Shown piece after piece: positions 1,854 to 24,797 of a DNA stretch of 64,000 nucleotides. This DNA is from Escherichia coli (GTDB lineage Bacteria > Pseudomonadota > Gammaproteobacteria > Enterobacterales > Enterobacteriaceae). The notes under the pieces were generated by a model. The model made no database searches and was not told where the DNA came from. It was given only the letters and a program-made list of their open reading frames with translations. The DNA lies in NCBI RefSeq assembly GCF_011045215.1, contig NZ_CP049201.1, one strand, 5' to 3'. Made by a program: the position numbers and the translations under genes. How positions within the stretch are numbered: position 1 is the first letter of the stretch; every line of letters starts with the position of its first letter.

Positions 1854-2993
<1,140 letters not shown>

Positions 2994-9186: not shown

Positions 9187-9282
9187 AATCGATATTCCTT
9201 TTTGCAGATAAATGAAAACGCCAGCCCTGTTCAGGCTGGCGTCAGTGGAATGAAGTCTGGTGAGTGAGATGATGAGTGAAAC

Positions 9283-9480: not shown

Positions 9481-9491
9481 GTTGTTCCTGG

Positions 9492-10354: not shown

Positions 10355-10443
10355 ACTGAAGATTTTCCTGATATGAGAGATTAAATTTTGAGGAGAGTAG
10401 TGCTGTAGCGCACCGGGCCGGAGCAGACGATTATTTCGGTGGT

Positions 10444-10812
10444 TTACTTTTTCGTTTCGGGTGTCGGATAAACAGCCAGATAAACGTAACCACAACTACC
10501 GAGGGTGTCGGCTTTGCAGGTCAGCCCTTTGGCATACAGCGTGACGGTATGCTGATGGCGGGGATTCAGTTCACCGCTGGTGAGCATGAGTTCCAGTTGT
10601 TTCATCAGCAGCGGAAAGGCCTGGTCCAGATGGTACGCATCCGCGTCGCTGAACCGGCCTCTGATACCGGCGCGGTCTGCAAGGTAATGCAACCGGTTAC
10701 CCTCCTGCACCAGACGTGCTCCGAAACAAGGTGTCACGGTACAGGGCAGTCCCCACCAGGGGCGGCCGCGATTGTCGTCGGGATGAGTTGTCTCATGGAG
10801 TGTGTCTGACAC
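10444..10812 (-). CDS. cbeA: CbeA/YeeU/YafW/YfjZ-family antitoxin (122 aa)
   Basis: Track ORF; MSDTLHETTHPDDNRGRPWWGLPCTVTPCFGARLVQEGNRLHYLADRAGIRGRFSDADAYHLDQAFPLLMKQLELMLTSGELNPRHQHTVTLYAKGLTCKAD. Confidence 0.8.
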   Translation of the reverse strand: MSDTLHETTHPDDNRGRPWWGLPCTVTPCFGARLVQEGNRLHYLADRAGIRGRFSDADAYHLDQAFPLLMKQLELMLTSGELNPRHQHTVTLYAKGLTCKADTLGSCGYVYLAVYPTPETKK

Positions 10813-10886
10813 AATAAAATCCTCACAAAAAATCAGTTAAGAATGGTCCGGTGGCAGCGATAATTCTGCTCATCATTTCTCCTGAC

Positions 10887-11108
10887 TCAGTTCAGAGTGA
10901 CGCTCATCAGCCGGACATACGGGCCAAAACTGTCCTTACGGCGTTCTGCAAACACGGCCAGCACACCGGGAATATCCTGCACTTCACGACCGGTATACGC
11001 CTCAGCACTGCCGTGCCAGCGGTATTTGCCGGTACAGAACGGAAAAAGACGGGATGCAGGATGTTGTTGGTGAATACGCATGGCTTCACCACGGGTGATA
11101 ATTTTCAT
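10887..11108 (-). CDS. YeeT/YkfH-like DUF987 protein (73 aa)
   Basis: Track ORF; size and position between the RadC-like gene and the antitoxin match the CP4 island module. Confidence 0.65.
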   Translation of the reverse strand: MKIITRGEAMRIHQQHPASRLFPFCTGKYRWHGSAEAYTGREVQDIPGVLAVFAERRKDSFGPYVRLMSVTLN

Positions 11109-11176
11109 GGTGGGATACCTCTGAAGACAGAAGATAAAAGTGAAAACAGGTGTGATGTGGTTGTGACGGTGACGGG

Positions 11177-11668
11177 TTAAAGCAGACCGTGTTCCGCAAA
11201 GGAGAAAACCTGGTTGCCTCCGACTATCAGATGGTCCGGCACCCGGATGTCCACCAGGGCCAGCGCCTGTACCAGACGTTCGGTGATAAGCCGGTCTGCC
11301 TTACTGGGTGTGACTTCACCGGACGGATGATTGTGTGCCAGCACCACGGCTGCGGCATTGTGATACAGGGCGCGTTTAATCACTTCCCGGGGATGGACTT
11401 CCGTGCGGTTGATAGTGCCGGTGAAGAGGGTTTCACCGGCAATCAGCTGATTCTGGTTATTCAGATACAGCACCCGGAATTCTTCACGCTCCAGTCCCGC
11501 CATGTTCAGAATCAGCCATTCCCGTGCCGCATGCGTGGAGGTGAAGGCCACGCCGGGTTCATGAAGATGGCGGTCCAGGGTTTTCAGGGCCCGCTGAATG
11601 AGACTGCGCTCGCCGGGCGTCATCTCTCCGGGCAGAAAGGAAAGCTGTTGCATTGCCCCTGCCTCCAT
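11177..11668 (-). CDS. RadC-like JAB/MPN-domain protein (YeeS/YfjY/YkfG family)
   Basis: Track ORF; JAMM-like HNHPSGEVTPSKAD motif; true start may be the internal MQQLSFLPGEM. Confidence 0.8.
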   Translation of the reverse strand: MEAGAMQQLSFLPGEMTPGERSLIQRALKTLDRHLHEPGVAFTSTHAAREWLILNMAGLEREEFRVLYLNNQNQLIAGETLFTGTINRTEVHPREVIKRALYHNAAAVVLAHNHPSGEVTPSKADRLITERLVQALALVDIRVPDHLIVGGNQVFSFAEHGLL

Positions 11669-12154
11669 TCAGTCGATGATGCGCATAATGGCGCTGCATT
11701 CCGGATGTTGCAGGGCGTAATCCCGCAACCGATAATAATGGACCGTCATGGCATAACACTCCGTACGACAGGCATGATGACTGTACGTCATCAGACAGGC
11801 GGCAATGCCGGCGGCTTCCGGACTCATTTCAGCGCGGTTACCGTTCATGGCATTGAACAGTACCCATGTTTCGTCATCATCGTCATCCGGTTCGGGTGCC
11901 ATAAATGCCCCGCCGTTGTTCAGGGTGTACAGATTCCAGATACCACCGCAGTAGTCTTCGCACAGACGGTCCATCCAGCCGAAGACACGGGGTTCCAGGG
12001 TCACCCACTGTGGAATGAGGCCAAAGTGCTGCGGCCAGAAGCTGATGCGCTGTTCATCAGGGACGGGAGTGGCAACCAACTGAGACTGGTTATTCCCTGA
12101 TGCAGTAGTTACGGAAACAGAAGGTGTGGTGGAGCTATGCGAAAAGGTTGTCAT
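11669..12154 (-). CDS. Antirestriction protein, ArdB/KlcA family (YfjX/YafX-like), 161 aa
   Basis: Track ORF; conserved WNLYTLNNGGAFMAPE region and acidic DDDDDE stretch; stop abuts the RadC-like start. Confidence 0.75.
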   Translation of the reverse strand: MTTFSHSSTTPSVSVTTASGNNQSQLVATPVPDEQRISFWPQHFGLIPQWVTLEPRVFGWMDRLCEDYCGGIWNLYTLNNGGAFMAPEPDDDDDETWVLFNAMNGNRAEMSPEAAGIAACLMTYSHHACRTECYAMTVHYYRLRDYALQHPECSAIMRIID

Positions 12155-12245
12155 GAGATGATTCCTTATAAAAAGTAAATGAATGGAAGAATGCCTGGGG
12201 ATTGGTACAGACGTGAGTCAGGGCTGCACTTTCAGGGAAACAGCA

Positions 12246-13064
12246 TTAGCGCATGCTCTCCAGCAGCGTTTCTGCCATCACCCACAATGCGCGATTGAGC
12301 TTAATGTCCGTGTCGATGCTGTGAATGGCACGGGTGTGGATACGTTTTCCTTTAGCGCTGCGACCGGAAATTCCGCCTTTCAGCATATTCTCCTGAATGG
12401 TCTGATAAGCACTCCACAGGTCCTTACCGTAATCCTCCCTGCGTCGTGGTGTCAGAATGTCGGCGGTGGTGACGGGCTGATGTTCGTCACCATAACGGTA
12501 AGTCAGTGCCGCCTGTGCCAGCGCCTGGTGTGCCGGTGGCGGCAGAATCAGCGACTGCATGGCATCACGCTTTTCCTCAATCCGGTCAAAAACGCCCACC
12601 ACTTCGTAAGCCCCTTCAATAACTTTCTCCACCACGTCTCCCCGGTGCGGAACACGCACCTCTCCCAGAGACTGACCGCAGACGCACCCGTTCTGACAAA
12701 CGAATCTGAAGTAACCCGGCAGCATCTGGTAGCTGGAGGTACCGTCATGGGAATTGAGCAGGATGATTTCCGGGACATGCTGTCCGTTTATCTCTCCGGC
12801 CCGCCGCAGACGCAGCATGTGTTTGGTATACCCCCGGCGGCCCGGGTCACGTACGCGGGTCTGGCAGGCGAAGAAGGGCTGAAAGCCCTCCCGCTGCAGA
12901 CTTTCCAGCACGGTGATGGTGGGGATATACGTATAGCGTTCACTGCGGGAGGTATGCCGGTCTTCCCCAAAAATACCGGGTACATAGTGCATCAGCTCTT
13001 CATGTGTCAGCGGACGGTCACGGCGTATCTGGTTCGCATAACCAAAACGACTTGCTAATCGCAT
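12246..13064 (-). CDS. DUF932-family protein (YafZ/YfjQ-like), 272 aa
   Basis: Track ORF; size and position near the GTPase end of the CP4-type module. Confidence 0.7.
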   Translation of the reverse strand: MRLASRFGYANQIRRDRPLTHEELMHYVPGIFGEDRHTSRSERYTYIPTITVLESLQREGFQPFFACQTRVRDPGRRGYTKHMLRLRRAGEINGQHVPEIILLNSHDGTSSYQMLPGYFRFVCQNGCVCGQSLGEVRVPHRGDVVEKVIEGAYEVVGVFDRIEEKRDAMQSLILPPPAHQALAQAALTYRYGDEHQPVTTADILTPRRREDYGKDLWSAYQTIQENMLKGGISGRSAKGKRIHTRAIHSIDTDIKLNRALWVMAETLLESMR

Positions 13065-13338
13065 GATCTGCTCCTTATGAATGATTAAGCGGTATAAATG
13101 AAAAAGCCGCAGCTCCCGGAGAAGACGCGGCCTGATGGATGATGTTTATTGTCTGAGGTACCCTTCACGGGCGGGCCACGCATTAAGCTGTTATGACAGC
13201 AACCGCCTGCCCGTATGAGAAAGATCCTTCAGCCAGGACATACTCTGTGTAACCCGGCATATCTGTTTTCTCCTGATAAATAAAAAGCCTCTGCCACGCG
13301 TTGTGACAGAGGCTGAAGCATGAAACTGACTTCAGGGA

Positions 13339-13794
13339 TCAGTTAACGTTTTTTCCGGAAACGGTAATTAGCAGTGGATGGTAGTCCTGGGGATCGAAAA
13401 CCGATAACGGCAGACTGACACGATGGCCGTTACTTTCTTCAGTTGCTTTAATGATTTCGGTTGTGGCGACATTTTCCACGCACTCCGTTTCCAGAAATGC
13501 GTCTGTGGTTCGCGTGGCATCACTGTCACCAAAGGCTTCCGTTTCCATTTTTCTGGTCACCAGCCTCTGACCATATTTGTCTTTGAGTTGCAGAGTGATG
13601 GTGAGGGGGCCAAATCCTTCTCCGTTTCCGCCATTATCCAGCCGGAACTGGTAAGCACAAATATTTCCCGGGAGCCATATCGTATCTGTATTGCGTATAC
13701 TGATGTAACGTTGATCCTGTGCCCGGAGTGGGGCAGACCACGTTAACCCCAGAATGACGCCGGTAATAATGCAGGTTTTGAACAGGTGAATCAT
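13339..13794 (-). CDS. Secreted/periplasmic hypothetical protein (151 aa), YfjT-like
   Basis: Track ORF; N-terminal signal-peptide-like MIHLFKTCIITGVILGLTWSAPLRA. Confidence 0.5.
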   Translation of the reverse strand: MIHLFKTCIITGVILGLTWSAPLRAQDQRYISIRNTDTIWLPGNICAYQFRLDNGGNGEGFGPLTITLQLKDKYGQRLVTRKMETEAFGDSDATRTTDAFLETECVENVATTEIIKATEESNGHRVSLPLSVFDPQDYHPLLITVSGKNVN

Positions 13795-13869
13795 GGTATT
13801 TACCTCTCTGAGTCATGACGATGACACTGACAAATCAGGTGATAAAACGTAAAAGGTGCAGAATACTCG

Positions 13870-16392
13870 TTATGCCGGTAACTCCGGGGGTAATGCTTCT
13901 TCCAGCCGGTTAACCATATTGCCGAGATGGGATGCATCATATTCCATGACGGGGCGTTGCCTGATGATACTGACCACCAGTGGTTTGATTAACATATTGG
14001 TCGCGGCCCGTTGTTGTATACCGGCGGCGAAAATGATCTCCAGAGCATTCTGATCGATAACACGGGCCAGATTCGCGTTCAGATTTTCTGTTTCATGTCC
14101 GGTCAGCAGGAAACTGCCGGCAAGCCATGTCACCTGTTCCTGAATCATTGCCAGAATTTTGACGCGATCTTCTTCAACCAGCGCTCCGGCAATTTTTCCT
14201 GATACAGCGGAGGCAATCATTCCCCCCAGAACACCGCCAACCACACGCCCTGTCAGTGCACCAAATGGTCCCAGTGGACTGAACAGTATCCCGCCCGCCA
14301 CTGACCCGACAGCTCCACCTGCCACACCGGAAGATGCCACGGCAAGATTCCTGATGAACTGCGTACCGGAGATCCGTCCCCGCAACATTTTGATCATGTC
14401 AGGGCCGGTTGTGACAGCTACCAGTGCCAGAGATGTCACCAGCGTACCCTTCATCACTTTGTTCAGGGCACTGATATTTCCTGCACCGGTCCCCTTCTGA
14501 AGAGCCAGTCGGACAGTCGGGCTGGCAGTCGAAAAATCAATGTGCTTCAGCATACCCTGAACAACACTGAGCCGGTGGAGTTGCTGGGTTGTGACGTAGA
14601 CAGCCAGTGTGCGGGTGAAGGTTTTTCCTGCCTGGACAGCAGCTGTCTGCAGAGCAGCATCGCGATCGCCGGTGCTGAGCCAGAAGACCGATGCCGTCAG
14701 GGCAAAACTGATCCCTCCGGCCGCCAGACTGACAACCGAACCCTCGGCAATATCATAAGTGACCGATTCGATGGTCCCGAACCGGGTGATATTACGGGCC
14801 TGAGTATAAGTCAGATGTCCCCGACGAATCAGCCGGGACGCTTCTGCGGGATCGATTACACCGGGTACTTTACCTTCGCGGATCTTATTCCTCATGGTTT
14901 CAACAGCGCCGGCATACTGATCACGGGGGACTTCCAGTTGCATGGGGCCATTATTTCCCATGTAACGATACTGTCCGTTTTGTCCGTCGAATGCCGCACC
15001 GACGCTACGGGCTGCAGTTGAACAATATTTCGTCTGGATTTCTGTTCCGCTGACCAGTCTGTCTGCTCCATTTCTGGCATTATTATCACCGAGGATCCGT
15101 GCGTTTTTCAGACGGATTCTGTCGACAATATGGTTTCCCCGTTCAGCGGCAAACCCATGTCCCTGCCCTCCGGAAGCAAACATTTTCTCATTTGTACTCC
15201 AGGTTTCCGGCAGTTTCATGAGAATCAGACCATTCGCCGTTGCATCGGAAATAAAACTGTTGTAGGGGCGTTCATAAATTTCCTGACACAGTGTTTCTGT
15301 TTCGCGACAAAGAGAGGAGCAGTACCATTCCGGATCCGGCTTATGATTTTCCGGGGCATGATGTACTTCTGTCAGCCCGCAGGAGGCACAGACACGAAGC
15401 TCATCCACGTGATGGAATGATACAAAACGGCGACCTTCTGAAAAGGGATACCAGTCACCGCCGTCCAGGCAACGATCGAGAAAATCGTCATTCGCTTCCG
15501 GTGATAAATTCAGGCGGTTCCGGAAGAGTGTTTTCAGTTCATCAGGTGTGAATGACAGGTTCTCTTTCAACTGTTCGTTAAACCCTGCCATGTTTCTTTC
15601 ATACCAGGCATTGTTCAGTAACCAGTTTCCGTCTGCCAGTTCAAATTCCCTCAGCTCTCCCCGGGAAATCCGTTGAGAAATAAGCGTCAGCCAGATGCGC
15701 TCCGTCAGTGAGTCAGGAAGGCTGTAATCGTTTTGCAAACTGGTCAGCCACGATTTACTGTTGAGCACCGGTTGTTCTTCCAGTGTCTGGCTGATGGCAC
15801 AGGTCAGTTTTTTCAGCGCCTGGATTTGGCTGGCCGCCCATAGCAGCGTCACTAATGCAGCCAGCCAGTACAACAACCCGCCCCACCACATCAGTGACGG
15901 TGAAATATCGTACTGTAACGCGATCAATGGTGCGCATGCAGAACAAGCCATAAGGAAAAAGGCAGTATAAAAACAGCAGTAATATCCGTTAATTTCCTTG
16001 CTGATATCTTCTGGTGTGATCCCGTTCTGCTGAATGTTTTTGATCTGCAGGGGAACAGCCAGCAGACCACCGGCGAGAGCGGTGGTCAGAATAAATTTCA
16101 CGGAGTCAAAGGTGTGAGACTCCAGCGCAATATGTTTACCATCAAGTCCCCACATGAAGCTGATGATCATTCCGGCAATCGTCAGAAATACGCCTGCCAG
16201 CCAGCGAATATGGAACAACCGGGTTATGCGTTCGGTGATATAGCCAGCCAGTAAGGCCGGGCCGAACAGACACAGCAATATGAGCCCTGCCAGCGCAGAA
16301 GCCGTGCTGATTAATGCTCTGAACAAAAGGCGAAGAATGGCAAATCCTGCGATCAGCAGGATCAGCGCGCCGACTATCTGTAACATAGTCAC
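13870..16392 (-). CDS. Large inner-membrane protein of unknown function (840 aa), YeeR-position downstream of flu
   Basis: Track ORF; hydrophobic N-terminal ~250 aa; central cysteine cluster CASCGLTEVHH...CSSLC; Gly-rich hydrophobic C-terminal third. Confidence 0.6.
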   Translation of the reverse strand: MTMLQIVGALILLIAGFAILRLLFRALISTASALAGLILLCLFGPALLAGYITERITRLFHIRWLAGVFLTIAGMIISFMWGLDGKHIALESHTFDSVKFILTTALAGGLLAVPLQIKNIQQNGITPEDISKEINGYYCCFYTAFFLMACSACAPLIALQYDISPSLMWWGGLLYWLAALVTLLWAASQIQALKKLTCAISQTLEEQPVLNSKSWLTSLQNDYSLPDSLTERIWLTLISQRISRGELREFELADGNWLLNNAWYERNMAGFNEQLKENLSFTPDELKTLFRNRLNLSPEANDDFLDRCLDGGDWYPFSEGRRFVSFHHVDELRVCASCGLTEVHHAPENHKPDPEWYCSSLCRETETLCQEIYERPYNSFISDATANGLILMKLPETWSTNEKMFASGGQGHGFAAERGNHIVDRIRLKNARILGDNNARNGADRLVSGTEIQTKYCSTAARSVGAAFDGQNGQYRYMGNNGPMQLEVPRDQYAGAVETMRNKIREGKVPGVIDPAEASRLIRRGHLTYTQARNITRFGTIESVTYDIAEGSVVSLAAGGISFALTASVFWLSTGDRDAALQTAAVQAGKTFTRTLAVYVTTQQLHRLSVVQGMLKHIDFSTASPTVRLALQKGTGAGNISALNKVMKGTLVTSLALVAVTTGPDMIKMLRGRISGTQFIRNLAVASSGVAGGAVGSVAGGILFSPLGPFGALTGRVVGGVLGGMIASAVSGKIAGALVEEDRVKILAMIQEQVTWLAGSFLLTGHETENLNANLARVIDQNALEIIFAAGIQQRAATNMLIKPLVVSIIRQRPVMEYDASHLGNMVNRLEEALPPELPA

Positions 16393-16506
16393 TCCGTGAT
16401 GAATATCATGTTATTGTTAATGCCAGCGAATGTGGCGTTGAATATCCGTTGCGCCGGTCCGGGTCCCGATCATGATGACCGGGACCACAGAGAGGCGATG
16501 GTTCTG

Positions 16507-19356
16507 TCAGAAGGTCACATTCAGCGTGGCCTGACCGTTATAGCCTTCGGCGCTGTTGCCGCTGACACTGTGGGCATAACCGGCCTGAACGCCCAGGGTG
16601 ATATTTTCCCGGACACGGGCTTCCAGTCCGGCCTGCAGGTCCAGTGACGTGCCATTCCGGGACGGTGAAAACGTCATGTTACTGCCGGCGGCGGCTGTAC
16701 CCATGCTCATGTCACCCCGGGAGCTGAAAGTGCGGATAACAGAAGGCTGTACCCACCAGTTCACCGGCAGTTCACTCACACGGTGTTTTGCACTGTCGCG
16801 CAGAGTGTCACGGGATGAGGTGCCTTCGCCAAAAGTCATATCGTTGTGGCTGCCCAGACGGAAGCCGGCACGCACATGTTGTGCACTGCCATGCCCGAAC
16901 TTCACATAACCGGCGTTATCCTGGCCGTCATCCAGGGAGAGCCCCTGCCAGGTGTACTGCAGTTGTGGCTCCAGCATCAGGTTGTCAGTGATACTGAAGG
17001 GCAGACCGGTTTCCAGTGAGCCCAGCCAGCCCCAGCCCCGGGCGCGGAAGTCGTTATTGTCCGATGACGCTTTCATGCTGTGGCGGGTTCCCTGGGCCAC
17101 AATGTCAGCCCACAGGCCGGAGGACGTGTGTACCAGATTCAGGTATCCGCCCAGGCTGCCGGCATCATCCCGGACCGTGCCGGCACGGGAGCCGTCATCA
17201 TCCTTAACATCAACGGAAGAATGGCCAGCAGCACCATACACTCCTGTCGTCAGTGACATACCGGCAACCTCTGTTCTCAGCAGGTCACCCTCCAGACGGA
17301 CGAGGCCATAGCTGCCGCTGCTTTCCGGCGTGGCCCCACGGGCAATACCACCGTTGTTATCGTGCCCGAGATGACCGCCCTGAATGCTGAGACGGACGCT
17401 GTTATTTTCACCGCTTACACCGGTCTGATGGCTGCGGGAACCTGCCAGAATCCGGTCATAGTCCATTGCCTGTGTCAGCATGGAGGCATACAGGGGGACT
17501 TCAGCACGATAAGCATTTTCACTGCGCAGGTACCAGTCTTCATCGCTGTCACGGTTCAGGGTGTAGTTAAAGGCGCCGGCCTGAAGCGGGCGACTCAGGG
17601 CAAACGCACCTTCTTCTGTGGTAGCACCATTCTGTGCATCCACAACCCGGATACCCTGTCCGGAGGTTGCCACCCCGAGGTTACTGTTTCCGACATTTGT
17701 AAACGCAAGCCAGGTTTTGCCGGTTGCCTGACCACCATTAATCACCAGCTGGTCAGAGGCATTACTGCCATCAAGGCTGACACGCATATTGATGGTGCCG
17801 CCCTGGCCGGTGAGGTTCGTGGTGGTTAGTTTATGGAACGTTACCGGGGAGTTACTTTTTGCAACAGCACGGCTCAGCGCGGCATCCGGTGTCGTCTGAT
17901 TATCAAAGTGAATCTCTCCTGCGTTAATAATATCGCCGGTACTGACCACATCACCATTCAGTACCATACTGGCGCCTTTACTGAGCTGTGTTCTGCCACT
18001 CAGACTTCCCCCGGCAGCCAGCGTCAGTGTTCCACGATGTCCGACAGTGGTGTTGCTGGCCAGTCCTCCGGCATTAACCGTAAAGCTGCCGCCATTTTCC
18101 AGCAGCAGGCCGCTGGCCTGACCGGATATGCCATCAATACTGAACTTACCGCTGGCATTGGTCCCCTCAACAGTGGCACCACTGTCTGCAATCAGGGCAC
18201 CACCGGATGTCATGGTGACATCTGTTGCCTTACCACCGGCAGACACTGCCAGGGTACCGCCGTCATCCACCAGTGTTTTCCAGGCTGAATGGCCCTCCAG
18301 TACATCCAGGCGACCGCCGGACTCCAGAACAACGCCGTCAGCCTTACCGTTTTCCACTGTGAAATTCCCCAGGCGGTTTGTGCCGGTGACAGTTGCAGCA
18401 GTACTGGTAACCAGTGCACCGCCCGTGTTCTGGGTGACTGCAGTGGCTTCCCCGCCGGCATGTACCCTCAGTTCACCGTTCTGATTTATGGTGGTGTTAC
18501 CGGCAGCGCCACCGGCCTTAACAACCTGCCAGCCCCCCTCGTTAATTACCGTGTTCAGCGCCAGTCCGTCCTTGTGCACATACTGGTAACCGCCATTCAG
18601 TGTGGTATTCAGGGCCCTTCCGTGTACCGACTGGTCACCACCTGCGTAAATGAGAGTGTCACGGGCTATCCCGGAAGATAAGATAATCTGCCGTCCATTT
18701 TTGTTGATGGTGGTGGATTCTGCTGTTCCCTGGACCTTCTGACCCGTGTACGAGTTGTCAGAATCCGGGCCGCCTTCTGCGCCGGTGTTGATGATGGTTC
18801 CTGTTGCCAGCCCGCCACTTTTAACGCTCTGGTAACCGTCGCGGTTGATAATTGTACCGGTGGCAACCCCGCCCTCATGAACCCACTGCTCGCCTCTGTT
18901 ATTCAGCGTGGTGTTCACCGCCAGCCCGTTCAGGCTCTGTCCCCCGCCGTCACGAATAACCGTATCACTGGCTGTTCCCCCCTCCAGCACGACCTGACGA
19001 CCATTTGTGGTGACAGTGGTGTTTCCGGCTATCCCGCCATTCTGTATCCATTGCCCACCGGTGTTTTCTTCACTGTCCGGCCCCAGTTCCAGCCCGGTAC
19101 TGATGGTCATTCCGTTGGCCGTACCGAGGACAATCTGGTTGTCATGATTTGTCAGTGTTCCGCCGCTCATGGTTTCTCCCGCCTGTACAACCGTGTCAGC
19201 AGCCAGTGCCGGGACTGACGTGACAGCAGCAAGAGACAGCGCAACCGCCACACCGGTGCGTTTTCCCCGTGAGCGGGCCAGTTCGGAGGCCACCACCAGG
19301 GTGCCCGTAATGTGATTCCATACCAGCCTGTAGCTGGTGTTCAGATGTCGTTTCAT
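16507..19356 (-). CDS. flu: Antigen 43 (Ag43) self-associating autotransporter, ~949-aa allele
   Basis: Track ORF 16507..19431(-); start at MKRHLNTSYRLVWNHITGTLVVASELARS (extended signal peptide); repetitive passenger domain; C-terminal beta-barrel ending ...GYNGQATLNVTF. Confidence 0.92.
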   Translation of the reverse strand: MKRHLNTSYRLVWNHITGTLVVASELARSRGKRTGVAVALSLAAVTSVPALAADTVVQAGETMSGGTLTNHDNQIVLGTANGMTISTGLELGPDSEENTGGQWIQNGGIAGNTTVTTNGRQVVLEGGTASDTVIRDGGGQSLNGLAVNTTLNNRGEQWVHEGGVATGTIINRDGYQSVKSGGLATGTIINTGAEGGPDSDNSYTGQKVQGTAESTTINKNGRQIILSSGIARDTLIYAGGDQSVHGRALNTTLNGGYQYVHKDGLALNTVINEGGWQVVKAGGAAGNTTINQNGELRVHAGGEATAVTQNTGGALVTSTAATVTGTNRLGNFTVENGKADGVVLESGGRLDVLEGHSAWKTLVDDGGTLAVSAGGKATDVTMTSGGALIADSGATVEGTNASGKFSIDGISGQASGLLLENGGSFTVNAGGLASNTTVGHRGTLTLAAGGSLSGRTQLSKGASMVLNGDVVSTGDIINAGEIHFDNQTTPDAALSRAVAKSNSPVTFHKLTTTNLTGQGGTINMRVSLDGSNASDQLVINGGQATGKTWLAFTNVGNSNLGVATSGQGIRVVDAQNGATTEEGAFALSRPLQAGAFNYTLNRDSDEDWYLRSENAYRAEVPLYASMLTQAMDYDRILAGSRSHQTGVSGENNSVRLSIQGGHLGHDNNGGIARGATPESSGSYGLVRLEGDLLRTEVAGMSLTTGVYGAAGHSSVDVKDDDGSRAGTVRDDAGSLGGYLNLVHTSSGLWADIVAQGTRHSMKASSDNNDFRARGWGWLGSLETGLPFSITDNLMLEPQLQYTWQGLSLDDGQDNAGYVKFGHGSAQHVRAGFRLGSHNDMTFGEGTSSRDTLRDSAKHRVSELPVNWWVQPSVIRTFSSRGDMSMGTAAAGSNMTFSPSRNGTSLDLQAGLEARVRENITLGVQAGYAHSVSGNSAEGYNGQATLNVTF

Positions 19357-19569
19357 CAGCTTTTCCTTACAGAGGGTGAATAAAAAAGCCGGTACCCACA
19401 AATGTGGATACCGGCAGGTACAAAACAGCATGGTCAGATAAAGTGGTTTTTCCCGGACATAAATGCTTCCCCTCTCTCATCCGCCAGAGAAGTATCAGTC
19501 CGTTGTGTGCAATTCCGTTCTGCATGATGAAGAGATTCAGCTGCCTTTTCGCAGGCCATTAACCACTAC

Positions 19570-19612
19570 AAACGATCGATACTAACGATCGATACCTGTT
19601 TTATCGATCGTT
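19570..19612 (-). promoter_or_regulatory. agn43 phase-variation switch: three clustered GATC (Dam) sites overlapping the expected OxyR operator
   Basis: ACGATCGATACTAACGATCGATACCTGTTTTATCGATCG; three GATC within ~40 bp, ~215-255 bp upstream of the flu start. Confidence 0.65.
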
Positions 19613-19727
19613 TTATTCTATTGATAGCAGGGCAGTCACGCAAGAGAAACAGGAGGGTATGAGGGGTTTGTATCATGTTTTCAGTTGGTTAACGCAATGT
19701 AATCAGGCATTTCCCCTGGCAGAGTGT

Positions 19728-20600
19728 TCAGAAGAAAATCCAGTTCCATACCGCACGGGCAACAGAGACCACCGTGTCACGAACAGCGCGCAGGGCCGTA
19801 CGGACAACAGAGGCAACACAGACGCTCTCCGCTGTGTCAAATATCCGGTCCACCGCACCGGTAAACTGTTCACGGGCCTGAGAGCGGACAGATTCCGTGC
19901 GCAGCTCGTCCTGCAGTCGGGTCATCAGGGGACTGGCGGCATGGTCGGGAAGCGCTGTCATGAGCGCACTGACCAGCGTATCCAGTTCCCAGCCGGTGCG
20001 GGCCGATACGGCCACAACCGGATGTGCGGGCCGGAACAGACGGAATACCGCCTCCGTTTTTTCGCGAATGTTCCGTGCCTGTGCGGGAGAGGGCTGAATG
20101 CCGGCCATATCCCATTCATGGCAGGGCTCCGTTTTGTCGGCCTGCGTCACCACAAACAGCACCTGCTGATGTCCCCGGTGCAGGATGTGTCGCCAGAAAT
20201 ACTCATCCACAGACAGGGCACGGTCATCGGCTTTAATCAGCCACAGTACCAGGTCAAGTTCAGGCAGAATGTCACGGTACAGGGCTTCATACTCTGCATC
20301 CCTGTCCCGGCTCTCGCCCACCCCGGGCAGGTCAGTGATAACCATGCTGTGACCGTGGCCACTCAGACGGAAGCGCTGCACTTCCCGGGTGCCGGCGTGA
20401 ACATCACTGACCGGGGTGACCTCCCCCTGAAACAGTGCATTACAGAGTGAGGATTTACCGGCCCCGCTTTTACCCATAATGCCAATCACGGGTTCGTGAC
20501 TGGTGAGTTTGCGCAGATGTTCCAGGATGTGACGGGAAAGTGAGTAAGGCAGGGAGGAGAGCGGTTTTTCAATTGCCTCAATGGCATCAGACGGATTCAT
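19728..20600 (-). CDS. YeeP/YfjP/YkfA-family GTPase (50S ribosome-binding GTPase fold)
   Basis: Track ORF 19728..20639(-); P-loop GIMGKSGAGKSS, DLPG switch motif; start likely at MNPSDAIEAIEK. Confidence 0.8.
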   Translation of the reverse strand: MNPSDAIEAIEKPLSSLPYSLSRHILEHLRKLTSHEPVIGIMGKSGAGKSSLCNALFQGEVTPVSDVHAGTREVQRFRLSGHGHSMVITDLPGVGESRDRDAEYEALYRDILPELDLVLWLIKADDRALSVDEYFWRHILHRGHQQVLFVVTQADKTEPCHEWDMAGIQPSPAQARNIREKTEAVFRLFRPAHPVVAVSARTGWELDTLVSALMTALPDHAASPLMTRLQDELRTESVRSQAREQFTGAVDRIFDTAESVCVASVVRTALRAVRDTVVSVARAVWNWIFF

Positions 20601-21254
20601 ACATGTATTCCCGGTGAAAAAAGACAAAACCCCGCGCACCGGAAAGGTGGCGGGGGATTCACGGAGATAATATCTGCCTGAAATTATTTAGGATGCAGGT
20701 ATCTTCAGATAATCATACCTCCAGAATTTTGTTCTTAATAGTTGAGTAGTGGTATTTGGTTTCCCTGAGAGAATATAAAGGTGAATCATACTGTATTGAG
20801 TTTGATTCTATTTGTACTGAGACAGGTATCTTCATGATTATAATCAAAAGTCGGGTGGATTGGTCTGGCGCTCATTATTTTTTCGAATAAACTCACTAAT
20901 TATTGTAACCATCCCAGAGGAGATGATTTTATGTATAATTGTGGTGAATCATATTCAGAATACGACATATCATTATCTGACGATGAAAACTATAACGATG
21001 ACTATTATCGTGAACGCCCGTGCCCGGGAGAAGTTTTCGGCTATGATAATACTGAGGATAATGATGAGGCGGCATCTGATTATGCACTAAAAATAAATGA
21101 AAACTCTGATTAATACGAGGTGGCTGATAATAAGACAATCAATGACAAATATTAATGAATAAACATAATCAGGCGCTCAATACTTGATTTAATCTGGGCG
21201 CCTGATTAAAATCTGAGGTAACATATAATAATTTTCATCAAAATAGTATTTATG

Positions 21255-22274
21255 TGTGTGATTCATAGACATCGTTTCAATTTTCTCAGCTCAAGTTCAA
21301 GCTTGTAATTCTGTTCCTGAATATGCTCCTTATTGGGCTGATAGCTTGCGTGAACGGCATCCGAGTATGGCGTTTTCTCAGCAAGTTCAAAGTAGCGCTC
21401 CATCGGCGTTTTACCGTTGTGAGCGCAATGAGGACGTTCCCAGTTATAGTAATGCTGCCATTCTGCCAGTCGCTCCTCCAAGTTATCAGTAGCGATATCT
21501 ACGGTAGCGTAAAACTCAGCTTTGTCTGTCTTTTGGGAGCGTTCAACTTTGCCATTAAGATGGGGTGATGCTGGTTTATTTGGACGAAACTTGATGCCGT
21601 ATTCTTTCAGTCTTTCCTGCACCTTAACGGCAAAAAACTCTCTTCCCCGGTCTGTCTGAAAGCGCTGAATCGGGAACGGCATTTCTTCAATAAAACAATC
21701 AATGAAATCCAGTGTGTTTGTAGTCGTGCGACGGGAATAGAGCCTCAGAACTCTGTAGCGAGTGCAATCATCAACAGATGTGTACTGATATAAGCCGGGG
21801 CCAATTTTACAGGTATCCATCTGAACCCAATCACCGGGAACAGGGCGTTCGTAGCGAATGAAATCAGCTTTACGCCGGAGTTTAACAACAGGTTTAACCT
21901 GATTCTGGCAAAGAACTTTGTGGATTGTTGCCATTGCAAGTGAGATTGAATGAAGTCGTTTTAACTCGCTTTGAATCCGTCTTGCACCCAGATTTCGCTG
22001 GGAACGTAACTCCAGAATCAGAGCGACTTCGCAAGTGCCGGTTTTCGTTGATGGCGAACGCTTAGGGCGACGGCTGTGGCTTTCCAGACCAGCGATGCCC
22101 TGAGCCAGATATCTGCGCCACCATTTACGCAATGTGGGGCGGGAAATACCGCAGCGACGGCATACGAACCCCGCGTCACCAGACGTTTCATAGAGTTTTA
22201 CCCACTGTAGCCGCTGCTGAATTTCCCTGTTCATAGTAAGGCATTATAGTGAAACGATGTCTATGAATCACACA
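21255..22274 (-). mobile_element. ~1.0-kb insertion sequence with 25-bp perfect terminal inverted repeats and one DDE transposase (IS481-family-like)
   Basis: Left end TGTGTGATTCATAGACATCGTTTCA (21255-21279) is the exact reverse complement of the right end (22250-22274); encloses the transposase ORF. Confidence 0.75.
21263..22234 (-). CDS. DDE transposase (323 aa), N-terminal HTH plus integrase-core domain
   Basis: Track ORF; N-terminal HTH region (CRRCGISRPTLRKWWRRY), integrase-core region with W..D-/-D-/-E spacing (WVQMDTC... TDRGREF ... ERSQKT). Confidence 0.8.
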   Translation of the reverse strand: MNREIQQRLQWVKLYETSGDAGFVCRRCGISRPTLRKWWRRYLAQGIAGLESHSRRPKRSPSTKTGTCEVALILELRSQRNLGARRIQSELKRLHSISLAMATIHKVLCQNQVKPVVKLRRKADFIRYERPVPGDWVQMDTCKIGPGLYQYTSVDDCTRYRVLRLYSRRTTTNTLDFIDCFIEEMPFPIQRFQTDRGREFFAVKVQERLKEYGIKFRPNKPASPHLNGKVERSQKTDKAEFYATVDIATDNLEERLAEWQHYYNWERPHCAHNGKTPMERYFELAEKTPYSDAVHASYQPNKEHIQEQNYKLELELRKLKRCL

Positions 22275-22424
22275 AGTAAAGAACCTTGCAGAGGCGTTCG
22301 AGCATTATAACGAATGGCATCCGCATAGTGCGCTGGGTTATCGCTCGCCACGGGAATATCTACGACAGCGGACCTGTAATGGGTTAAGTGATAACAGATG
22401 TCTGGAAATATAGGGGCAAATCCA
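22275..22424 (+). mobile_element. IS2 right-end remnant (last ~40 codons of the orfB transposase plus right terminal repeat)
   Basis: Encodes ...[42 protein letters not shown] and ends ...TGGAAATATAGGGGCAAATCCA, which matches the IS2 terminus as I remember it; truncated where the IS481-like element begins. Confidence 0.7.
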
Positions 22425-22598
22425 GCGTAATACCAACCATATAATCTCTAGGAGGAGTATTTTTACAATAGTAAGAACTATCATACATCCCCCTACAGAT
22501 TCAGAGAAGAAAAAGAATTAATTATCGTCAAAACTTTCGACAAATCACATCATTAACATGATAACAACTAACAAAGGACAAGCTAATGAAAGATGTGA

Positions 22599-23651
22599 TT
22601 ACTGCATCAATACGGTAGCTATCGCACTGCCAGAAAACGATCCAGCATCAATTCTGTTTGTATCTATAACCCTATATTGTGACGTTATATCAAATGTTCT
22701 ACTTCCACTGATAACCCCCGAAAATTCCTTCGCACCATCAACAGTCAATGTGCACTTTCCATTATCTCCACATCGAGTTACATTCCCCCCTTCCCCTGAT
22801 ATTAGATTACTACCTTTAATGGTTATATCTACTCTGGTTGGTGAACTGCAATTAATCACTAATCCGGCCTTAGCAAAGTGTCCATCACGAGCCTGGGCTG
22901 ATGTTATTGCATTATGATTTATTGATATATCTTTATTCCCTGCTATATTACAGGATGCCAGAACATTCACTCTTACAGGGGCATATCTGTTCTCCATATT
23001 AACTACTGCAGACTCAACACCCCCACCATCAGAACAATATTTTTCCCCCTTATACCATTCCTCAGATCCTATTTTTAGCGGAATGTTTAAATCATATATT
23101 CCGGCTAAAGCACTGCCCCTCTCTATCGTTACCCTCAATTTGGTACTCTGAAAGTTGTTATATACCAGAGGATATCTGTATCCCGGGACAATTTCTCCTT
23201 CTGGGAATGGTCTGTCATACCAATCATAGTTATCATAAACACCAACGTAAGTCTGATAACCATTATAAATACCACGTTTATTATACCCCCCGGAAATAAT
23301 CTGAATACTCCCTTTCAGACCATTACCCAATCGTATGTTATTACTATCAACTGGCATCGCAATCCATGTTGCCTGACTCTTTGAGCCTTTACCCGAAAGA
23401 ATCTTAACCGGCGAGCTAACAGGCACATTATGACGCTGGACCCAGCTAACAACTGCAGACGTTCTTGGTGCCAGACCGGGCAATACAATATCAAAATAAC
23501 TTGCTGTGTTTCCTGAGGAAATTGTTACATCCGGAATAGTAACATTGTTACCATCTAACTGCCACAATATTTGCATATCACGACAAGGTTCATATGCAAA
23601 TGAACAACCTGATATAAAAACAAAAAGATAAATTATTTTCTCACACCACAT
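22599..23651 (-). CDS. Secreted adhesin-like protein (~350 aa), possible fimbrial tip adhesin; AT-rich
   Basis: Track ORF 22599..23714(-); signal peptide MWCEKIIYLFVFISGCSFA; cysteine pairs; beta-rich C-terminus ending ...GSAIATVLMQ; no chaperone or usher gene nearby. Confidence 0.45.
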   Translation of the reverse strand: MWCEKIIYLFVFISGCSFAYEPCRDMQILWQLDGNNVTIPDVTISSGNTASYFDIVLPGLAPRTSAVVSWVQRHNVPVSSPVKILSGKGSKSQATWIAMPVDSNNIRLGNGLKGSIQIISGGYNKRGIYNGYQTYVGVYDNYDWYDRPFPEGEIVPGYRYPLVYNNFQSTKLRVTIERGSALAGIYDLNIPLKIGSEEWYKGEKYCSDGGGVESAVVNMENRYAPVRVNVLASCNIAGNKDISINHNAITSAQARDGHFAKAGLVINCSSPTRVDITIKGSNLISGEGGNVTRCGDNGKCTLTVDGAKEFSGVISGSRTFDITSQYRVIDTNRIDAGSFSGSAIATVLMQ

Positions 23652-24797
23652 ACCTTTCACACCTTGTATATCCCCAGACCAGAAAATCCCTGAGCGCATA
23701 AATAACCCTCTCACTACGAACCGAAGACAACTCCATTAACAACGGAAAAACAAACTCAGATACCTTTCCTGGTATTAAAACATCCTTCTCTTTTACTTTT
23801 TTTGCACATCTTCTCCTTAACCATAAAACAGAGAAAGAATAAAATTCGCACACAGGATATATAGATACTTTATCCCAGTAAATAACAAAAAAACGATCTT
23901 TTTATCTACAAAAACGACACAATAAAGACAAACAAACCAAAAACACAAAAAAACACCAAAAATAACTCCAATTGGCAGCAAAATAACAAATAAAAAGATC
24001 GTTTAATTTGCATTAAGCAGCATTTTTAACCGTACAAACAAAAAAGCAAAAATTAGACAAAAATCAAAAACAAGTATATCAAAAAATGGAAAAACAAAAG
24101 ACAGTAATATTATGAGTTGCTTTTTTGTTCACATGTAAACAGGTGAATTTCATTTCAGAGATACTGATTATCCTGAAAATACTTATTCATTAATTACCAA
24201 CACTTTTTCATGTAAACATCACGCTAATTGCATGGAAAAAGAAAGGAAACTTTTTAGTCGGCATGAAGACACTTTTGTAATTACTGTACAGATACTAATT
24301 GTTCCTGCCCTTCCTGACCCGATAGCGTGACAATCCATTTACATGGTTCCATGAAATTGTGAACTGCCTGATAATCTAATGTCGTGTCAACACCACGATC
24401 TTTGACCGTCTTATATATCACTGGTACTAATAGATTAACCCGACCACAGGAAAAATATTTCCGTCAGGTATTTGGATATGCCCGGAACCAAGATCCACAA
24501 AACAGACCACTGACGTTTGTCAATGTAATACTGGCCTTCTATGGTAAATGTTGTGCTCATCAATACACAGATGTGATTTGTCTGAACCTTTACTATGTTA
24601 CTATGGATGGTATTTTACGGGAGAGCTGGAAATACGTTACGCATCCGGAGCTCTTCCCAAAGAATTAACAGCTTGAGCTCGAAAAGGGAAACCTGTTCTG
24701 AATTCCACCTCGGAAAATATAATAACCAGTTTTCTTATGACTATTATGCTTAAACACTGCCCAGATATGTCAGGGAAGAAAGAGTATGATAGACTCA

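What the first reader, a model, noticed from the sequence alone, without database searches (positions are those of the whole stretch)
19570..19612. Intact three-GATC Dam/OxyR phase-variation switch upstream of this agn43 allele
Three GATC sites lie within ~40 bp (ACGATCGATACTAACGATCGATACCTGTTTTATCGATCG) at the position expected for the OxyR operator of agn43. This Ag43 allele (949 aa) is therefore likely phase-variable.
Basis: partly seen in the sequence, partly recalled or inferred. Interest (0 to 1): 0.35.

Follow-up and report, generated by a model that had tools for sequence, protein, structure and literature searches.

The report
Known Ag43 Dam/OxyR on-off switch
The three closely spaced GATC sites are real and form the well-known methylation-and-OxyR on/off switch in front of an E. 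coli Antigen 43 adhesin gene, so this is an ordinary, already described element, although the gene behind it contains no GATC at all.

Summary
Observation confirmed. GATC sits at 19574-77, 19587-90 and 19606-09, and the quoted 39-mer is 19572-19610. The gene is on the minus strand (ATG 19356, stop 16507, 949 aa, Ag43/Cah family).

Read on that strand, the -10 hexamer TAGAAT and all three GATCs align in register with the K-12 flu regulatory region, with identical 19- and 13-bp spacing. Two OxyR half-sites (8/10 each) lie 32 bp apart, the spacing canonical for reduced OxyR. They overlap the -10/+1 and hold the GATCs. Together they are the best OxyR-type site in the 64 kb.

Across 12 distinct operator sequences, none of the 16 consensus-matching positions varies, against 17 of 31 others. 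This operator type occurs in 3,236 of 5,426 complete E. coli genomes, including ST131, the sequence type of EC958, in which OxyR repression of agn43 has been published. The 253-nt leader matches Rfam IS102/IsrC. The switch probably drives agn43-yeeR-irmA.

Phase variation itself is inferred, not tested.

Side observations:
- agn43 is GATC-free in all 12 full-length switch-family alleles sampled.
- A pap-like GATC pair 102 bp apart lies 4.3 kb away.
- An FHA-like operon has three invariant promoter GATCs and a 9-kb nearly GATC-free body.

The parts
19638..19643 (-). -35-like hexamer TTGCGT, 17-bp spacer to the -10
   Evidence: Read from the sequence. It aligns with K-12 TTGTCC at the same 17-bp distance. 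It matches TTGACA at only 3 of 6 positions, so the consensus promoter scan did not call it.
19615..19620 (-). -10 hexamer TAGAAT
   Evidence: Identical to and aligned with K-12. Invariant in 16 of 17 sampled alleles; EC12 has TAGGGC.
19607..19621 (-). OxyR half-site A, ATAGAATAAAACGAT (8 of 10 consensus positions); overlaps the -10 hexamer and GATC-I
   Evidence: Half-site scan. Identical in K-12.
19606..19609 (-). GATC-I; its G (19609) is the inferred transcription start
   Evidence: The K-12 isrC 5' end annotated in RefSeq coincides with the G of the homologous GATC.
19587..19590 (-). GATC-II
19575..19589 (-). OxyR half-site C, ATCGTTAGTATCGAT (8 of 10); flanked by and overlapping GATC-II and GATC-III
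   Evidence: Allelic variation is confined to the non-consensus positions 5 and 7-9. Its centre is 32 bp from the centre of half-site A.
19574..19577 (-). GATC-III
19568..19625 (-). Predicted OxyR-protected operator (-16 to +42 relative to the inferred +1)
   Evidence: Inferred by transferring the K-12 footprint, which I recall from Wallecha et al. 2002 and did not re-read here, onto alignment A1. It contains both half-sites.
19375..19611 (-). 5' leader RNA, Rfam IS102 (K-12 isrC) homologue
   Evidence: Rfam RF00124: 74.4 bits against a gathering score of 46, E 1.6e-12, full model length.
19378..19415 (-). Intrinsic-terminator-like hairpin (12 bp, 8 GC pairs) plus T-run, just before the ribosome-binding site
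   Evidence: Terminator scan. Appears in both the minimum-free-energy and centroid folds. Nearly invariant across alleles.
16507..19356 (-). agn43/cah coding sequence, 949 aa, no GATC
   Evidence: Translation. NCBIfam NF033177 Ag43/Cah: 1973 bits against a cut-off of 1200. Pfam ESPR, AIDA, AC_1 and Autotransporter domains. GATC count.
13870..16392 (-). yeeR-like gene (840 aa ORF), probable second gene of the operon
   Evidence: Synteny with annotated loci. The agn43-yeeR-irmA operon was shown in UPEC (PMC4807369).
13339..13794 (-). irmA, probable third gene of the operon
   Evidence: Matches PDB 5EK5 IrmA with E 1.7e-81. Annotated as IrmA family in syntenic loci.
16472..22638 (.). 6.2-kb stretch whose only GATCs are the three switch sites
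   Evidence: 3 observed against about 23-24 expected from composition.

Best explanation
This is the operator of the Dam/OxyR epigenetic phase-variation switch of an Ag43/Cah-family autotransporter gene, in the form common to most E. coli.

Transcription reads leftward on the minus strand. A sigma-70 promoter (-35 TTGCGT, -10 TAGAAT) starts transcription at about 19609, the G of the first GATC.

An OxyR tetramer binds two half-sites 32 bp apart, at 19621-19607 and 19589-19575. These cover the -10/+1 and the three GATCs. Bound OxyR blocks transcription and shields the GATCs from Dam; this is the OFF state, with unmethylated sites.

If Dam methylates the sites after replication before OxyR rebinds, OxyR can no longer bind and the promoter is free; this is the ON state, with methylated sites. 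Both states are inherited and switch at low frequency.

The transcript begins with a 253-nt IS102/IsrC-type leader that ends in a terminator-like hairpin. It then probably continues through agn43, yeeR and irmA.

Shown here: the sequence anatomy, the homology, the conservation pattern and the gene identities. Inferred from published work on K-12 and UPEC alleles: OxyR binding, methylation sensitivity, the ON/OFF behaviour and co-transcription.
For: - Three GATCs at the stated coordinates.
- In-register alignment with K-12 flu: same -10, same GATC spacing of 19 and 13 bp. The K-12 isrC 5' end falls at the G of GATC-I.
- Two 8/10 OxyR half-sites with a 17-bp spacer score 16/20. This is the single best site in the 64-kb window over all spacers from 5 to 19 bp. 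All 13 alleles with this regulatory region, K-12 included, also score 16/20.
- A 32-bp centre-to-centre distance is described as canonical for reduced OxyR (PMC4856963). The Salmonella gtr half-sites, with GATC pairs 13 bp apart, follow the same pattern (PMC2909390).
- In 12 distinct operator sequences, 0 of 16 consensus-matching positions vary, against 17 of 31 other positions (Fisher P = 1e-4).
- All three GATCs are intact in 16 of the 17 alleles sampled that retain this regulatory region. The single exception sits in front of a gene truncated by IS2.
- The 60-bp operator is present in 3,236 of 5,426 complete E. coli genomes, with up to 5 copies.
- A strain of ST131, the sequence type of EC958, carries the same operator type. 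In EC958, an oxyR mutation raised agn43 transcription 121-fold, and agn43-yeeR-irmA were co-transcribed (PMC4807369).
- Published statement that both Ag43 allele groups keep three GATCs with similar spacing (PMC2808357).
- The downstream gene is a bona fide Ag43/Cah.
- The leader matches Rfam IS102.
- The host core genes are E. coli at 99.3% identity. E. coli carries dam and oxyR (established knowledge).
Against: - There are no methylation, binding or expression data for this allele.
- dam and oxyR are not in the window.
- The -35 is weak (3 of 6) and the consensus promoter scan called nothing here.
- On the classical contiguous 37-bp OxyR motif the site scores only 13/20, tied with 11 other sites in the window.
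- In the K-12 register that holds all three GATCs, this allele scores 10/20 against 14/20 for K-12, by hand count from the sequences. The cause is that the K-12 CTAT element between GATC-I and GATC-II is replaced here.
- The exact operator sequence (TTAGT in half-site C) matched no complete genome at full length; the nearest differs by one base at a non-consensus position.
- The footprint and start-site coordinates for K-12 come from my memory of Wallecha et al. 2002, because the paper could not be opened.
Confidence: 0.9

Rival explanations
1. The operator is present but functionally locked. Because the K-12 central element between GATC-I and GATC-II (AATATCTATTT) is replaced by GATAAAACAGG, OxyR would bind too weakly or differently. 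The gene would then be constitutively ON, or regulated without heritable switching.
For: In the contiguous 22-bp register that spans all three GATCs, the score drops from 14/20 in K-12 to 10/20 here (hand count from the sequences). The classical-motif score of 13/20 is not exceptional in the window.
Against: - The replaced segment falls in the 17-bp spacer of the extended half-site arrangement, which scores 16/20 in both K-12 and this allele.
- This is the majority operator type in E. coli.
- The ST131 operator is of this type, and an oxyR deletion derepressed agn43 121-fold in ST131 strain EC958 (PMC4807369).
- The consensus positions and the GATCs are under visible constraint.
Confidence: 0.06
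2. The palindromic CGATCG elements are conserved for an RNA-level role. They would form the 5' hairpin of the IS102/IsrC leader or sRNA, and the GATCs would be incidental to that structure rather than a DNA methylation switch.
For: The Rfam IS102 model has a first helix made by the GATC-II and GATC-III palindromes. The leader's minimum-free-energy fold puts a 5' hairpin on the GATC-I and GATC-II sequences.
Against: - The two predictions pair different GATCs, so no single helix is supported.
- Invariant positions coincide with the OxyR consensus and extend upstream of +1 into the untranscribed -10 region.
- The whole-leader fold is only weakly better than shuffles (z = -2.0).
- The DNA-level mechanism is established experimentally for K-12 (reviewed in PMC13337833).
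- The two roles are not mutually exclusive.
Confidence: 0.03
3. The three GATCs are a chance cluster in an intergenic region.
For: A triple within 32 bp somewhere in 64 kb has P about 0.27. Six such triples within 50 bp exist in the window.
Against: In-register homology with K-12, presence in more than 3,000 genomes, and P about 0.002 for this particular intergenic region.
Confidence: 0.01

Closest known systems
E. coli K-12 agn43 (flu) Dam/OxyR phase-variation switch, with its isrC/IS102 leader
   Same: - Same -10 hexamer TAGAAT and the same 17-bp distance to a weak -35.
- Three GATCs in the same register (spacing 19 and 13 bp).
- The first GATC lies at the start of the leader RNA.
- Identical half-site A and an equivalent half-site C (8/10 each, 32 bp apart).
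- The terminator hairpin, ribosome-binding site and first codons are nearly identical.
   Different: - 9 of the 11 bases immediately after GATC-I differ (K-12 AATATCTATTT, here GATAAAACAGG). This removes K-12's extra CTAT element and so the contiguous oxidised-type register (14/20 in K-12, 10/20 here).
- The leader is 31 nt longer, and its middle is too diverged for megablast.
- The protein has 949 aa against 1039 aa, with 78% nucleotide identity.
Ag43/Cah alleles of pathogenic and commensal E. coli (ST131, Nissle 1917/ST73, O157:H7 cah, EAEC 042)
   Same: The operator type is identical. Differences occur only at non-consensus positions of half-site C and in the promoter spacer. The flanks are the same: yeeP-like GTPase upstream, yeeR and irmA downstream. 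OxyR repression and the three-gene operon were shown in CFT073, EC958 and 83972 (PMC4807369). The three-GATC conservation has been noted in print (PMC2808357).
   Different: This allele's exact operator sequence was not found at full length in 5,426 complete genomes; the nearest differs by one base. The island sits at tRNA-Ser(GGA), next to the trxB-cydDC-aat core genes.
Salmonella gtr (P22, LT2) and opvAB OxyR/Dam phase-variation switches
   Same: They use the same two proteins. OxyR half-sites carry GATCs, the GATC pair is 13 bp apart within a half-site, and the half-site spacing is 32 bp as for reduced OxyR (PMC2909390, PMC4856963).
   Different: Those systems have three or four half-sites upstream of the promoter and switch by alternative OxyR registers, so that OxyR acts as both activator and repressor. 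Here a single half-site pair overlaps -10/+1 and can only repress.
Pap-family Lrp/Dam phase-variation switch
   Same: It is a heritable methylation pattern set by competition between Dam and a DNA-binding protein.
   Different: It uses Lrp and PapI, with two GATC boxes 102 bp apart upstream of the promoter. That spacing is not met at 19574-19609. A separate element of that kind lies at 23895 and 23997 in the same window.

Membership tests
agn43-type Dam/OxyR phase-variation operator | Three GATC sites in the K-12 register, immediately at and downstream of the transcription start | tested here: met
   Alignment A1: all three align with K-12, with spacing of 19 and 13 bp in both. GATC-I coincides with the homologue of the isrC 5' end.
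agn43-type Dam/OxyR phase-variation operator | An OxyR binding site overlapping the GATCs and the promoter | tested here: met
   Two 8/10 half-sites 32 bp apart score 16/20, the best in the window. Consensus positions are invariant across alleles. The classical contiguous motif scores only 13/20.
agn43-type Dam/OxyR phase-variation operator | A sigma-70 promoter whose -10/+1 lies inside the operator | tested here: inconclusive
   The -10 TAGAAT and the 17-bp spacer are conserved with K-12. The -35 matches only 3 of 6 positions and the consensus scan found no promoter. The start site is inferred by homology.
agn43-type Dam/OxyR phase-variation operator | The controlled gene is an Ag43/Cah autotransporter | tested here: met
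   NCBIfam NF033177: 1973 bits against a cut-off of 1200, full length. Pfam ESPR, AIDA, AC_1 and Autotransporter.
agn43-type Dam/OxyR phase-variation operator | Methylation of the GATCs abolishes OxyR binding, and OxyR binding blocks Dam | not testable with these tools
   This needs EMSA or footprinting with methylated and unmethylated DNA, or single-molecule methylation calls.
agn43-type Dam/OxyR phase-variation operator | Heritable, reversible ON/OFF expression that depends on dam and oxyR | not testable with these tools
   Shown for K-12 (reviewed in PMC13337833). OxyR repression was shown for UPEC strains, among them EC958 of ST131, a sequence type that carries this operator type (PMC4807369). 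It has not been shown for this allele.
agn43-type Dam/OxyR phase-variation operator | The host encodes Dam and OxyR | not tested
   Neither gene was looked for in the window. The core flank is E. coli at 99.3% identity, a species that carries both (established knowledge).
Rfam IS102 (isrC) leader RNA | Score at or above the family gathering threshold over the full model | tested here: met
   74.4 bits against 46, model positions 1-206 of 206, window 19611-19375 on the minus strand.
gtr/opvAB-type OxyR/Dam switch | Three or more OxyR half-sites offering alternative binding registers upstream of the promoter | tested here: not met
   Only two non-overlapping half-sites of 8/10 or better exist, and they overlap -10/+1. 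A 7/10 site overlaps half-site C.
Pap-type Lrp/Dam switch | Two inverted GATC boxes 102 bp apart | tested here: not met
   Spacings here are 13 and 19 bp. A true 102-bp pair lies elsewhere, at 23895 and 23997.

The most novel reading that the evidence does not exclude
The three regulatory GATCs are the only GATCs in 6.2 kb, and this isolation may be selected and part of how the switch works. The coding sequence has been kept GATC-free while alleles diverged by 22%.

The evidence that this is selection rather than inheritance:
- Synonymous codon choice avoids GATC: GAC is always used before a codon starting with C, and ATC is never used after a codon ending in G.
- Replaying the observed substitutions at random positions would create about 6 sites (P of none about 0.002).

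One possible purpose is to insulate the operator kinetically from the processive Dam enzyme, or from SeqA or MutH. That would keep the unmethylated OFF state heritable.

The same layout appears at two other loci seen here:
- the FHA-like two-partner secretion operon at 45568-57314, with three invariant promoter GATCs and 1 GATC against 31 expected in the 9.2-kb gene;
- a pap-type fimbrial operon on an E. coli C5 plasmid, with a 5.8-kb GATC-free body.
Probability: 0.2. Interest if true: 0.55.

Novelty: already known. Interest (0 to 1): 0.15.

Why it matters
For annotation, it means this Ag43/Cah allele should be treated as phase-variable, together with the downstream yeeR and irmA. Its expression in any culture or infection model will then depend on the ON/OFF state of the colony picked. 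It adds nothing new to the mechanism.

The side observation could matter more. Some genes behind Dam-controlled promoters are kept free of GATC. If that is functional, it would add a cis-acting design rule to bacterial epigenetic switches. It would also give a specific explanation for some of the 'GATC-free regions' reported in E. coli mobile elements.

Tried and rejected
- **Whole-collection scan.** The scan of genome contigs with TCGATCGNNNNNATCGATCG was too unspecific. One hit was relevant, Citrobacter werkmanii L029.
- **Primary papers.** Haagmans 2000, Waldron 2002, Wallecha 2002 and 2003, Kaminska 2010 and Casadesus & Low 2006 could not be opened. The K-12 start site and footprint are therefore cited from memory and cross-checked only against the isrC annotation.
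- **Classical OxyR motif.** The 37-bp motif does not single out the site: 13/20, tied with 11 others. The extended 17-bp-spacer arrangement does.
- **Promoter scan.** The consensus scan found no promoter. The promoter assignment rests on homology.
- **TCGA as a control.** TCGA is also absent from agn43, which first suggested a purely compositional cause for the missing GATC. A second-order Markov expectation explains TCGA (about 1.5 expected) but not GATC (about 7 expected).
- **Is the GATC desert specific to the switch?** This is not supported as stated. A switch-less Ag43-like allele is also nearly GATC-free. Several unrelated island genes in the window are depleted too. GATC-free stretches in mobile elements are already described in general terms (PMC4659465).
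- **IrmA and NCBIfam.** NCBIfam has no model that hits IrmA. The gene was identified through PDB 5EK5 instead.

Full report
**Observation**

The + strand has GATC at 19574, 19587 and 19606. The adjacent long ORF is on the minus strand. From the ATG at 19356 to the stop codon at 16507-16509 it encodes 949 aa, beginning MKRHLNTSYRLVWNHITGTL.

The protein is an Ag43/Cah-family autotransporter:
- NCBIfam NF033177 scores 1973 bits against a cut-off of 1200 over its full length.
- Pfam finds ESPR, AIDA repeats, AC_1 and the autotransporter beta-domain.

The GATCs therefore lie 218-253 nt upstream of the start codon, in the 371-bp gap between agn43 and a yeeP-like GTPase gene (19728-20600, minus strand).

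The cluster is not statistically remarkable on its own. A triple within 32 bp somewhere in this window has P about 0.27, and there are six triples within 50 bp. Within this particular intergenic region P is about 0.002.

**Anatomy on the coding strand**

| Element | Coordinates |
|---|---|
| -35-like TTGCGT | 19643-19638 |
| spacer | 17 bp |
| -10 TAGAAT | 19620-19615 |
| GATC-I | 19609-19606 |
| GATC-II | 19590-19587 |
| GATC-III | 19577-19574 |
| leader | about 253 nt |
| 12-bp GC-rich hairpin with T-run | 19415-19378 |
| Shine-Dalgarno and ATG | immediately after the hairpin |

Rfam's IS102 family, which is the K-12 isrC RNA, matches 19611-19375 on the minus strand at 74.4 bits. The gathering score is 46, and the match covers model positions 1-206 of 206.

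**Comparison with K-12**

I fetched the MG1655 flu region and aligned it. The -10 hexamer and all three GATCs align column for column, with the same spacing of 19 and 13 bp. The terminator, the ribosome-binding site and the first codons are almost identical.

In RefSeq the 5' end of isrC is the G of the K-12 GATC-I. That agrees with my recollection of Wallecha et al. 2002: agn43 transcription starts at the G of the upstream GATC, and OxyR protects -16 to +42. I could not open that paper. Transferred to the window, +1 is about 19609 and the protected region is 19625-19568.

Two things differ from K-12:
- 9 of the 11 bases immediately after GATC-I are different (K-12 AATATCTATTT, here GATAAAACAGG).
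- The middle of the leader is so diverged that megablast matched K-12 only over the last 80 bases.

The window's version is the common one. The 401-bp regulatory region is found in 4,017 of 5,426 complete E. coli genomes, mostly at 95-99% identity. The 60-bp operator is found in 3,236 genomes, with up to five copies per genome.

**OxyR site**

The classical contiguous OxyR motif (ATAGnTnnnAnCTAT, N7, ATAGnTnnnAnCTAT) scores 13/20 here and 14/20 in K-12. That is not exceptional; twelve sites in the window reach 13.

Scanning for single half-sites shows two of 8/10:
- half-site A, ATAGAATAAAACGAT (19621-19607), overlaps the -10 and GATC-I;
- half-site C, ATCGTTAGTATCGAT (19589-19575), is bracketed by GATC-II and GATC-III.

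Their centres are 32 bp apart. With a 17-bp spacer the pair scores 16/20. This is the single best hit in the window over all spacers from 5 to 19 bp. The same 16/20 is found in all 13 alleles with this regulatory region, K-12 included.

A 32-bp spacing is what the opvAB study calls canonical for reduced OxyR (PMC4856963). The gtr half-sites, with GATC pairs 13 bp apart, follow the same pattern (PMC2909390). The segment that differs from K-12 falls in the spacer of this arrangement.

Across 12 distinct operator sequences, none of the 16 positions that match the OxyR consensus varies, whereas 17 of the other 31 do (Fisher P = 1e-4; P = 0.009 without K-12). The sequences are related, so these P values are indicative only.

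**Population sample**

I read 17 alleles that retain this regulatory region (analysed). All three GATCs are intact in 16 of them. These include K-12, Nissle 1917, ST131, UM146, O157:H7 and O111 cah, and an allele interrupted by ISEc12.

- The exception is Z217-4, where GATC-II is CAATC and the gene behind it is truncated by IS2.
- STEC2018-553 has an IS3 in the leader that removes both promoter and switch.
- EC12 has a mutated -10 (TAGGGC).

**Published support**

The mechanism is established for K-12: OxyR represses and shields the GATCs, while Dam methylation blocks OxyR (PMC3764049, PMC4872104, PMC13337833).

For alleles of the window's operator type:
- The EAEC 042 genome paper states that both allele groups have three GATCs with similar spacing (PMC2808357).
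- Moriel et al. showed that agn43-yeeR-irmA are co-transcribed and OxyR-repressed in CFT073, EC958 (ST131) and 83972. In EC958, agn43 rose 121-fold in the oxyR mutant (PMC4807369).

The window has the same gene order: a yeeR-like gene at 16392-13870, and irmA at 13794-13339 (PDB 5EK5, E 1.7e-81). The switch probably controls all three genes.

The host is E. coli. The trxB-cydDC-aat flank ending at tRNA-Ser(GGA), 8107-8194, is 99.3% identical to E. coli genomes.

**Verdict on the finding**

This is an ordinary, intact copy of a textbook switch, and its conservation across alleles is already in the literature. What is not shown for this allele is OxyR binding, methylation state and ON/OFF behaviour.

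Points against:
- the -35 is weak and the promoter scan was negative;
- the match to the classical OxyR motif is modest;
- the exact operator sequence is absent at full length from the 5,426 complete genomes, the nearest differing by one base at a non-consensus position.

I put 0.9 on a functional Dam/OxyR phase switch and about 0.06 on a locked variant. The remainder goes to an RNA-only role or chance.

**What I noticed beyond the finding: GATC-free genes**

The three GATCs are the only ones between 16472 and 22638. That is 3 observed against about 23-24 expected.

The agn43 coding sequence has none. The same holds for the K-12 flu gene and for all 12 full-length switch-family alleles I sampled, which span 78-97% nucleotide identity. 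A thirteenth, switch-less Ag43-like allele has a single GATC near its 3' end.

Four tests say this is not just composition or shared ancestry:
- Codon shuffling expects 5.8 GATCs in the window allele (P about 6e-4) and 8.6 in K-12.
- A second-order Markov model expects 6-9. The same model explains the equally absent TCGA, for which about 1.5 are expected.
- Codon choice depends on context. Asp before a codon starting with C is always GAC (5 of 5 and 6 of 6), although GAT makes up half or more of the other Asp codons. Ile after a codon ending in G is never ATC (0 of 9 and 0 of 6), although ATC is about half elsewhere.
- Replaying the 618 K-12-versus-window substitutions at random positions, keeping the same codon position and base change, creates about 6 GATCs, with P of none about 0.002.

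The boundary is sharp. The yeeR-like gene, next in the same operon, has 19 GATCs against 15.6 expected.

The depletion is not confined to agn43:
- The window as a whole has 140 GATCs against about 248 expected.
- The core genes are normal, but the GTPase gene, the small CP4-44-like genes, two helicase-like genes and above all a 3,078-aa FHA-type exoprotein gene (1 against 31.3 +/- 4.2) are depleted.
- The switch-less Ag43-like allele in PigCaeca_2 is also almost GATC-free.

Forde et al. already reported that GATC-free stretches of 1 kb or more are enriched in E. coli mobile elements, without giving a mechanism (PMC4659465). A functional link to the switch, through insulation from processive Dam, SeqA or MutH, is therefore possible but unproven. 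I give it about 0.2.

**Other side observations**

*A pap-type switch remnant.* At 23892-24006 there are two inverted pap-type GATC boxes, AACGATCTTTTTA and ATAAAAAGATCGTTTAA, whose GATCs are exactly 102 bp apart. Next to them is a truncated PapB-family gene (Pfam PF03333, E 3e-15). This module occurs in only 3 of 5,426 genomes. On an E. coli C5 plasmid it heads a complete chaperone-usher operon, whose body has no GATC for 5.8 kb.

*A GATC cluster in front of the FHA-like operon.* Upstream of that operon, three GATCs at 57262-57314 are invariant in an alignment that is otherwise about 82-88% identical:
- one lies at the centre of the 18-bp palindrome ACATATCGATCGATATGT;
- one lies in the spacer of a TTGAGA-N18-TATAAT promoter-like site;
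- one abuts the TATAAT, inside a sequence matching the Fur box at 13 of 19 positions by hand count.

This looks like a candidate Dam-sensitive promoter. I did not pursue it further.

Noticed in passing
window 16472-22638 (agn43 CDS 16507-19356, yeeP-like GTPase 19728-20600); also L001, L003, L124-L135: The three switch GATCs are the only GATCs in 6.2 kb. agn43 has none in all 12 full-length switch-family alleles sampled (78-97% nucleotide identity), and a switch-less Ag43-like allele has one. Expectations are 6-9. Synonymous codon choice avoids GATC, and replaying the inter-allele substitutions predicts about 6 new sites (P of none about 0.002). The boundary with the GATC-rich yeeR-like gene is sharp (19 observed, 15.6 expected). 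I found no report of this for agn43 specifically. GATC-free regions in mobile elements are known in general (PMC4659465).
   Followed up: yes
window 45568-57321 (tpsA-like 45568-54804, acyltransferase 54820-55347, tpsB-like 55357-57096, promoter-like region 57262-57321), minus strand: This is a two-partner-secretion operon: a filamentous-haemagglutinin-type 3,078-aa exoprotein, a gene whose RM11911 counterpart is annotated as a toxin-activating lysine-acyltransferase, and a ShlB/FhaC-type transporter. The 9.2-kb gene has 1 GATC against 31.3 +/- 4.2 expected. Upstream, three GATCs are invariant in an alignment of about 82-88% identity. One is inside the palindrome ACATATCGATCGATATGT, one is in the spacer of TTGAGA-N18-TATAAT, and one abuts the TATAAT within a 13-of-19 Fur-box-like sequence (hand count). 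It is a candidate Dam-sensitive promoter.
   Followed up: partly
window 23641-24006 (GATC at 23895 and 23997; papB-like ORF 23641-23853, minus strand): Two inverted pap-type GATC boxes lie exactly 102 bp apart, next to a truncated PapB-family regulator gene (PF03333). No papI-like ORF or fimbrial genes were found nearby, so this looks like a remnant Lrp/Dam phase switch 4.3 kb from the agn43 switch. The module is rare: 3 of 5,426 complete genomes, all from cattle.
   Followed up: partly
L139 (E. coli C5 plasmid A) 7399-14049: The same pap-like switch (97% identical) heads a complete chaperone-usher fimbrial operon here. After GATCs at 7399 and 7501, and a second pair also 102 bp apart at 8037 and 8139, there is no GATC for 5.8 kb (8208-14049) across the subunit, usher and chaperone genes.
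   Followed up: no
whole window; gaps 46317-55798, 39495-44472, 8728-13065, 57736-60995: The window has 140 GATCs against about 248 expected. Core genes (1-7350) have the expected number. Many island genes have none: the small CP4-44-like genes at 9492-13064, the UvrD/Rep-like helicase gene at 41300-43126, and a TssA-like gene at 39657-40874. The SF1 helicase gene with ProA/Hhe anti-phage-like hits at 36349-39030 has 1 against 7.2 expected.
   Followed up: partly
window 34924-34984: Three direct repeats, GTTATTnnnnGATCT, are spaced exactly 23 bp apart. They lie immediately after the stop of an IS4-family transposase ORF (33497-34912) and may be Dam-sensitive subterminal sites of the insertion sequence.
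   Followed up: no
L128 (Z217-4), L134 (STEC2018-553), L131 (EC12), L127 (OZ038769): These are natural variants of the switch:
- In Z217-4, GATC-II has mutated to CAATC in front of an agn43 truncated by IS2.
- In STEC2018-553, an IS3 in the leader removes promoter and operator but leaves an intact gene.
- In EC12, the -10 has changed from TAGAAT to TAGGGC while all three GATCs are kept.
- In OZ038769, the operator is intact in front of a gene split by ISEc12.
   Followed up: partly
L029 (Citrobacter werkmanii NBRC 105721), about 7060-7200, minus strand: An array of OxyR-type half-sites carrying GATCs (ATCGTTTTTACCTAT, ATAGTTTTTATCGAT, ATCGTTTTTATCGAT) lies upstream of a small ORF whose first residues look hydrophobic by eye. 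It resembles the Salmonella opvAB and gtr architecture rather than agn43. It was the only relevant hit of an otherwise failed collection scan.
   Followed up: no
window 8107-8194 and 8344-13064: The island abuts tRNA-Ser(GGA), next to trxB-cydDC-aat. It begins with a CP4-44-type module. By synteny with C5 this includes CbtA/CbeA toxin-antitoxin, DUF987, RadC/JAB, an antirestriction protein and DUF932. This is the usual neighbourhood of agn43.
   Followed up: partly
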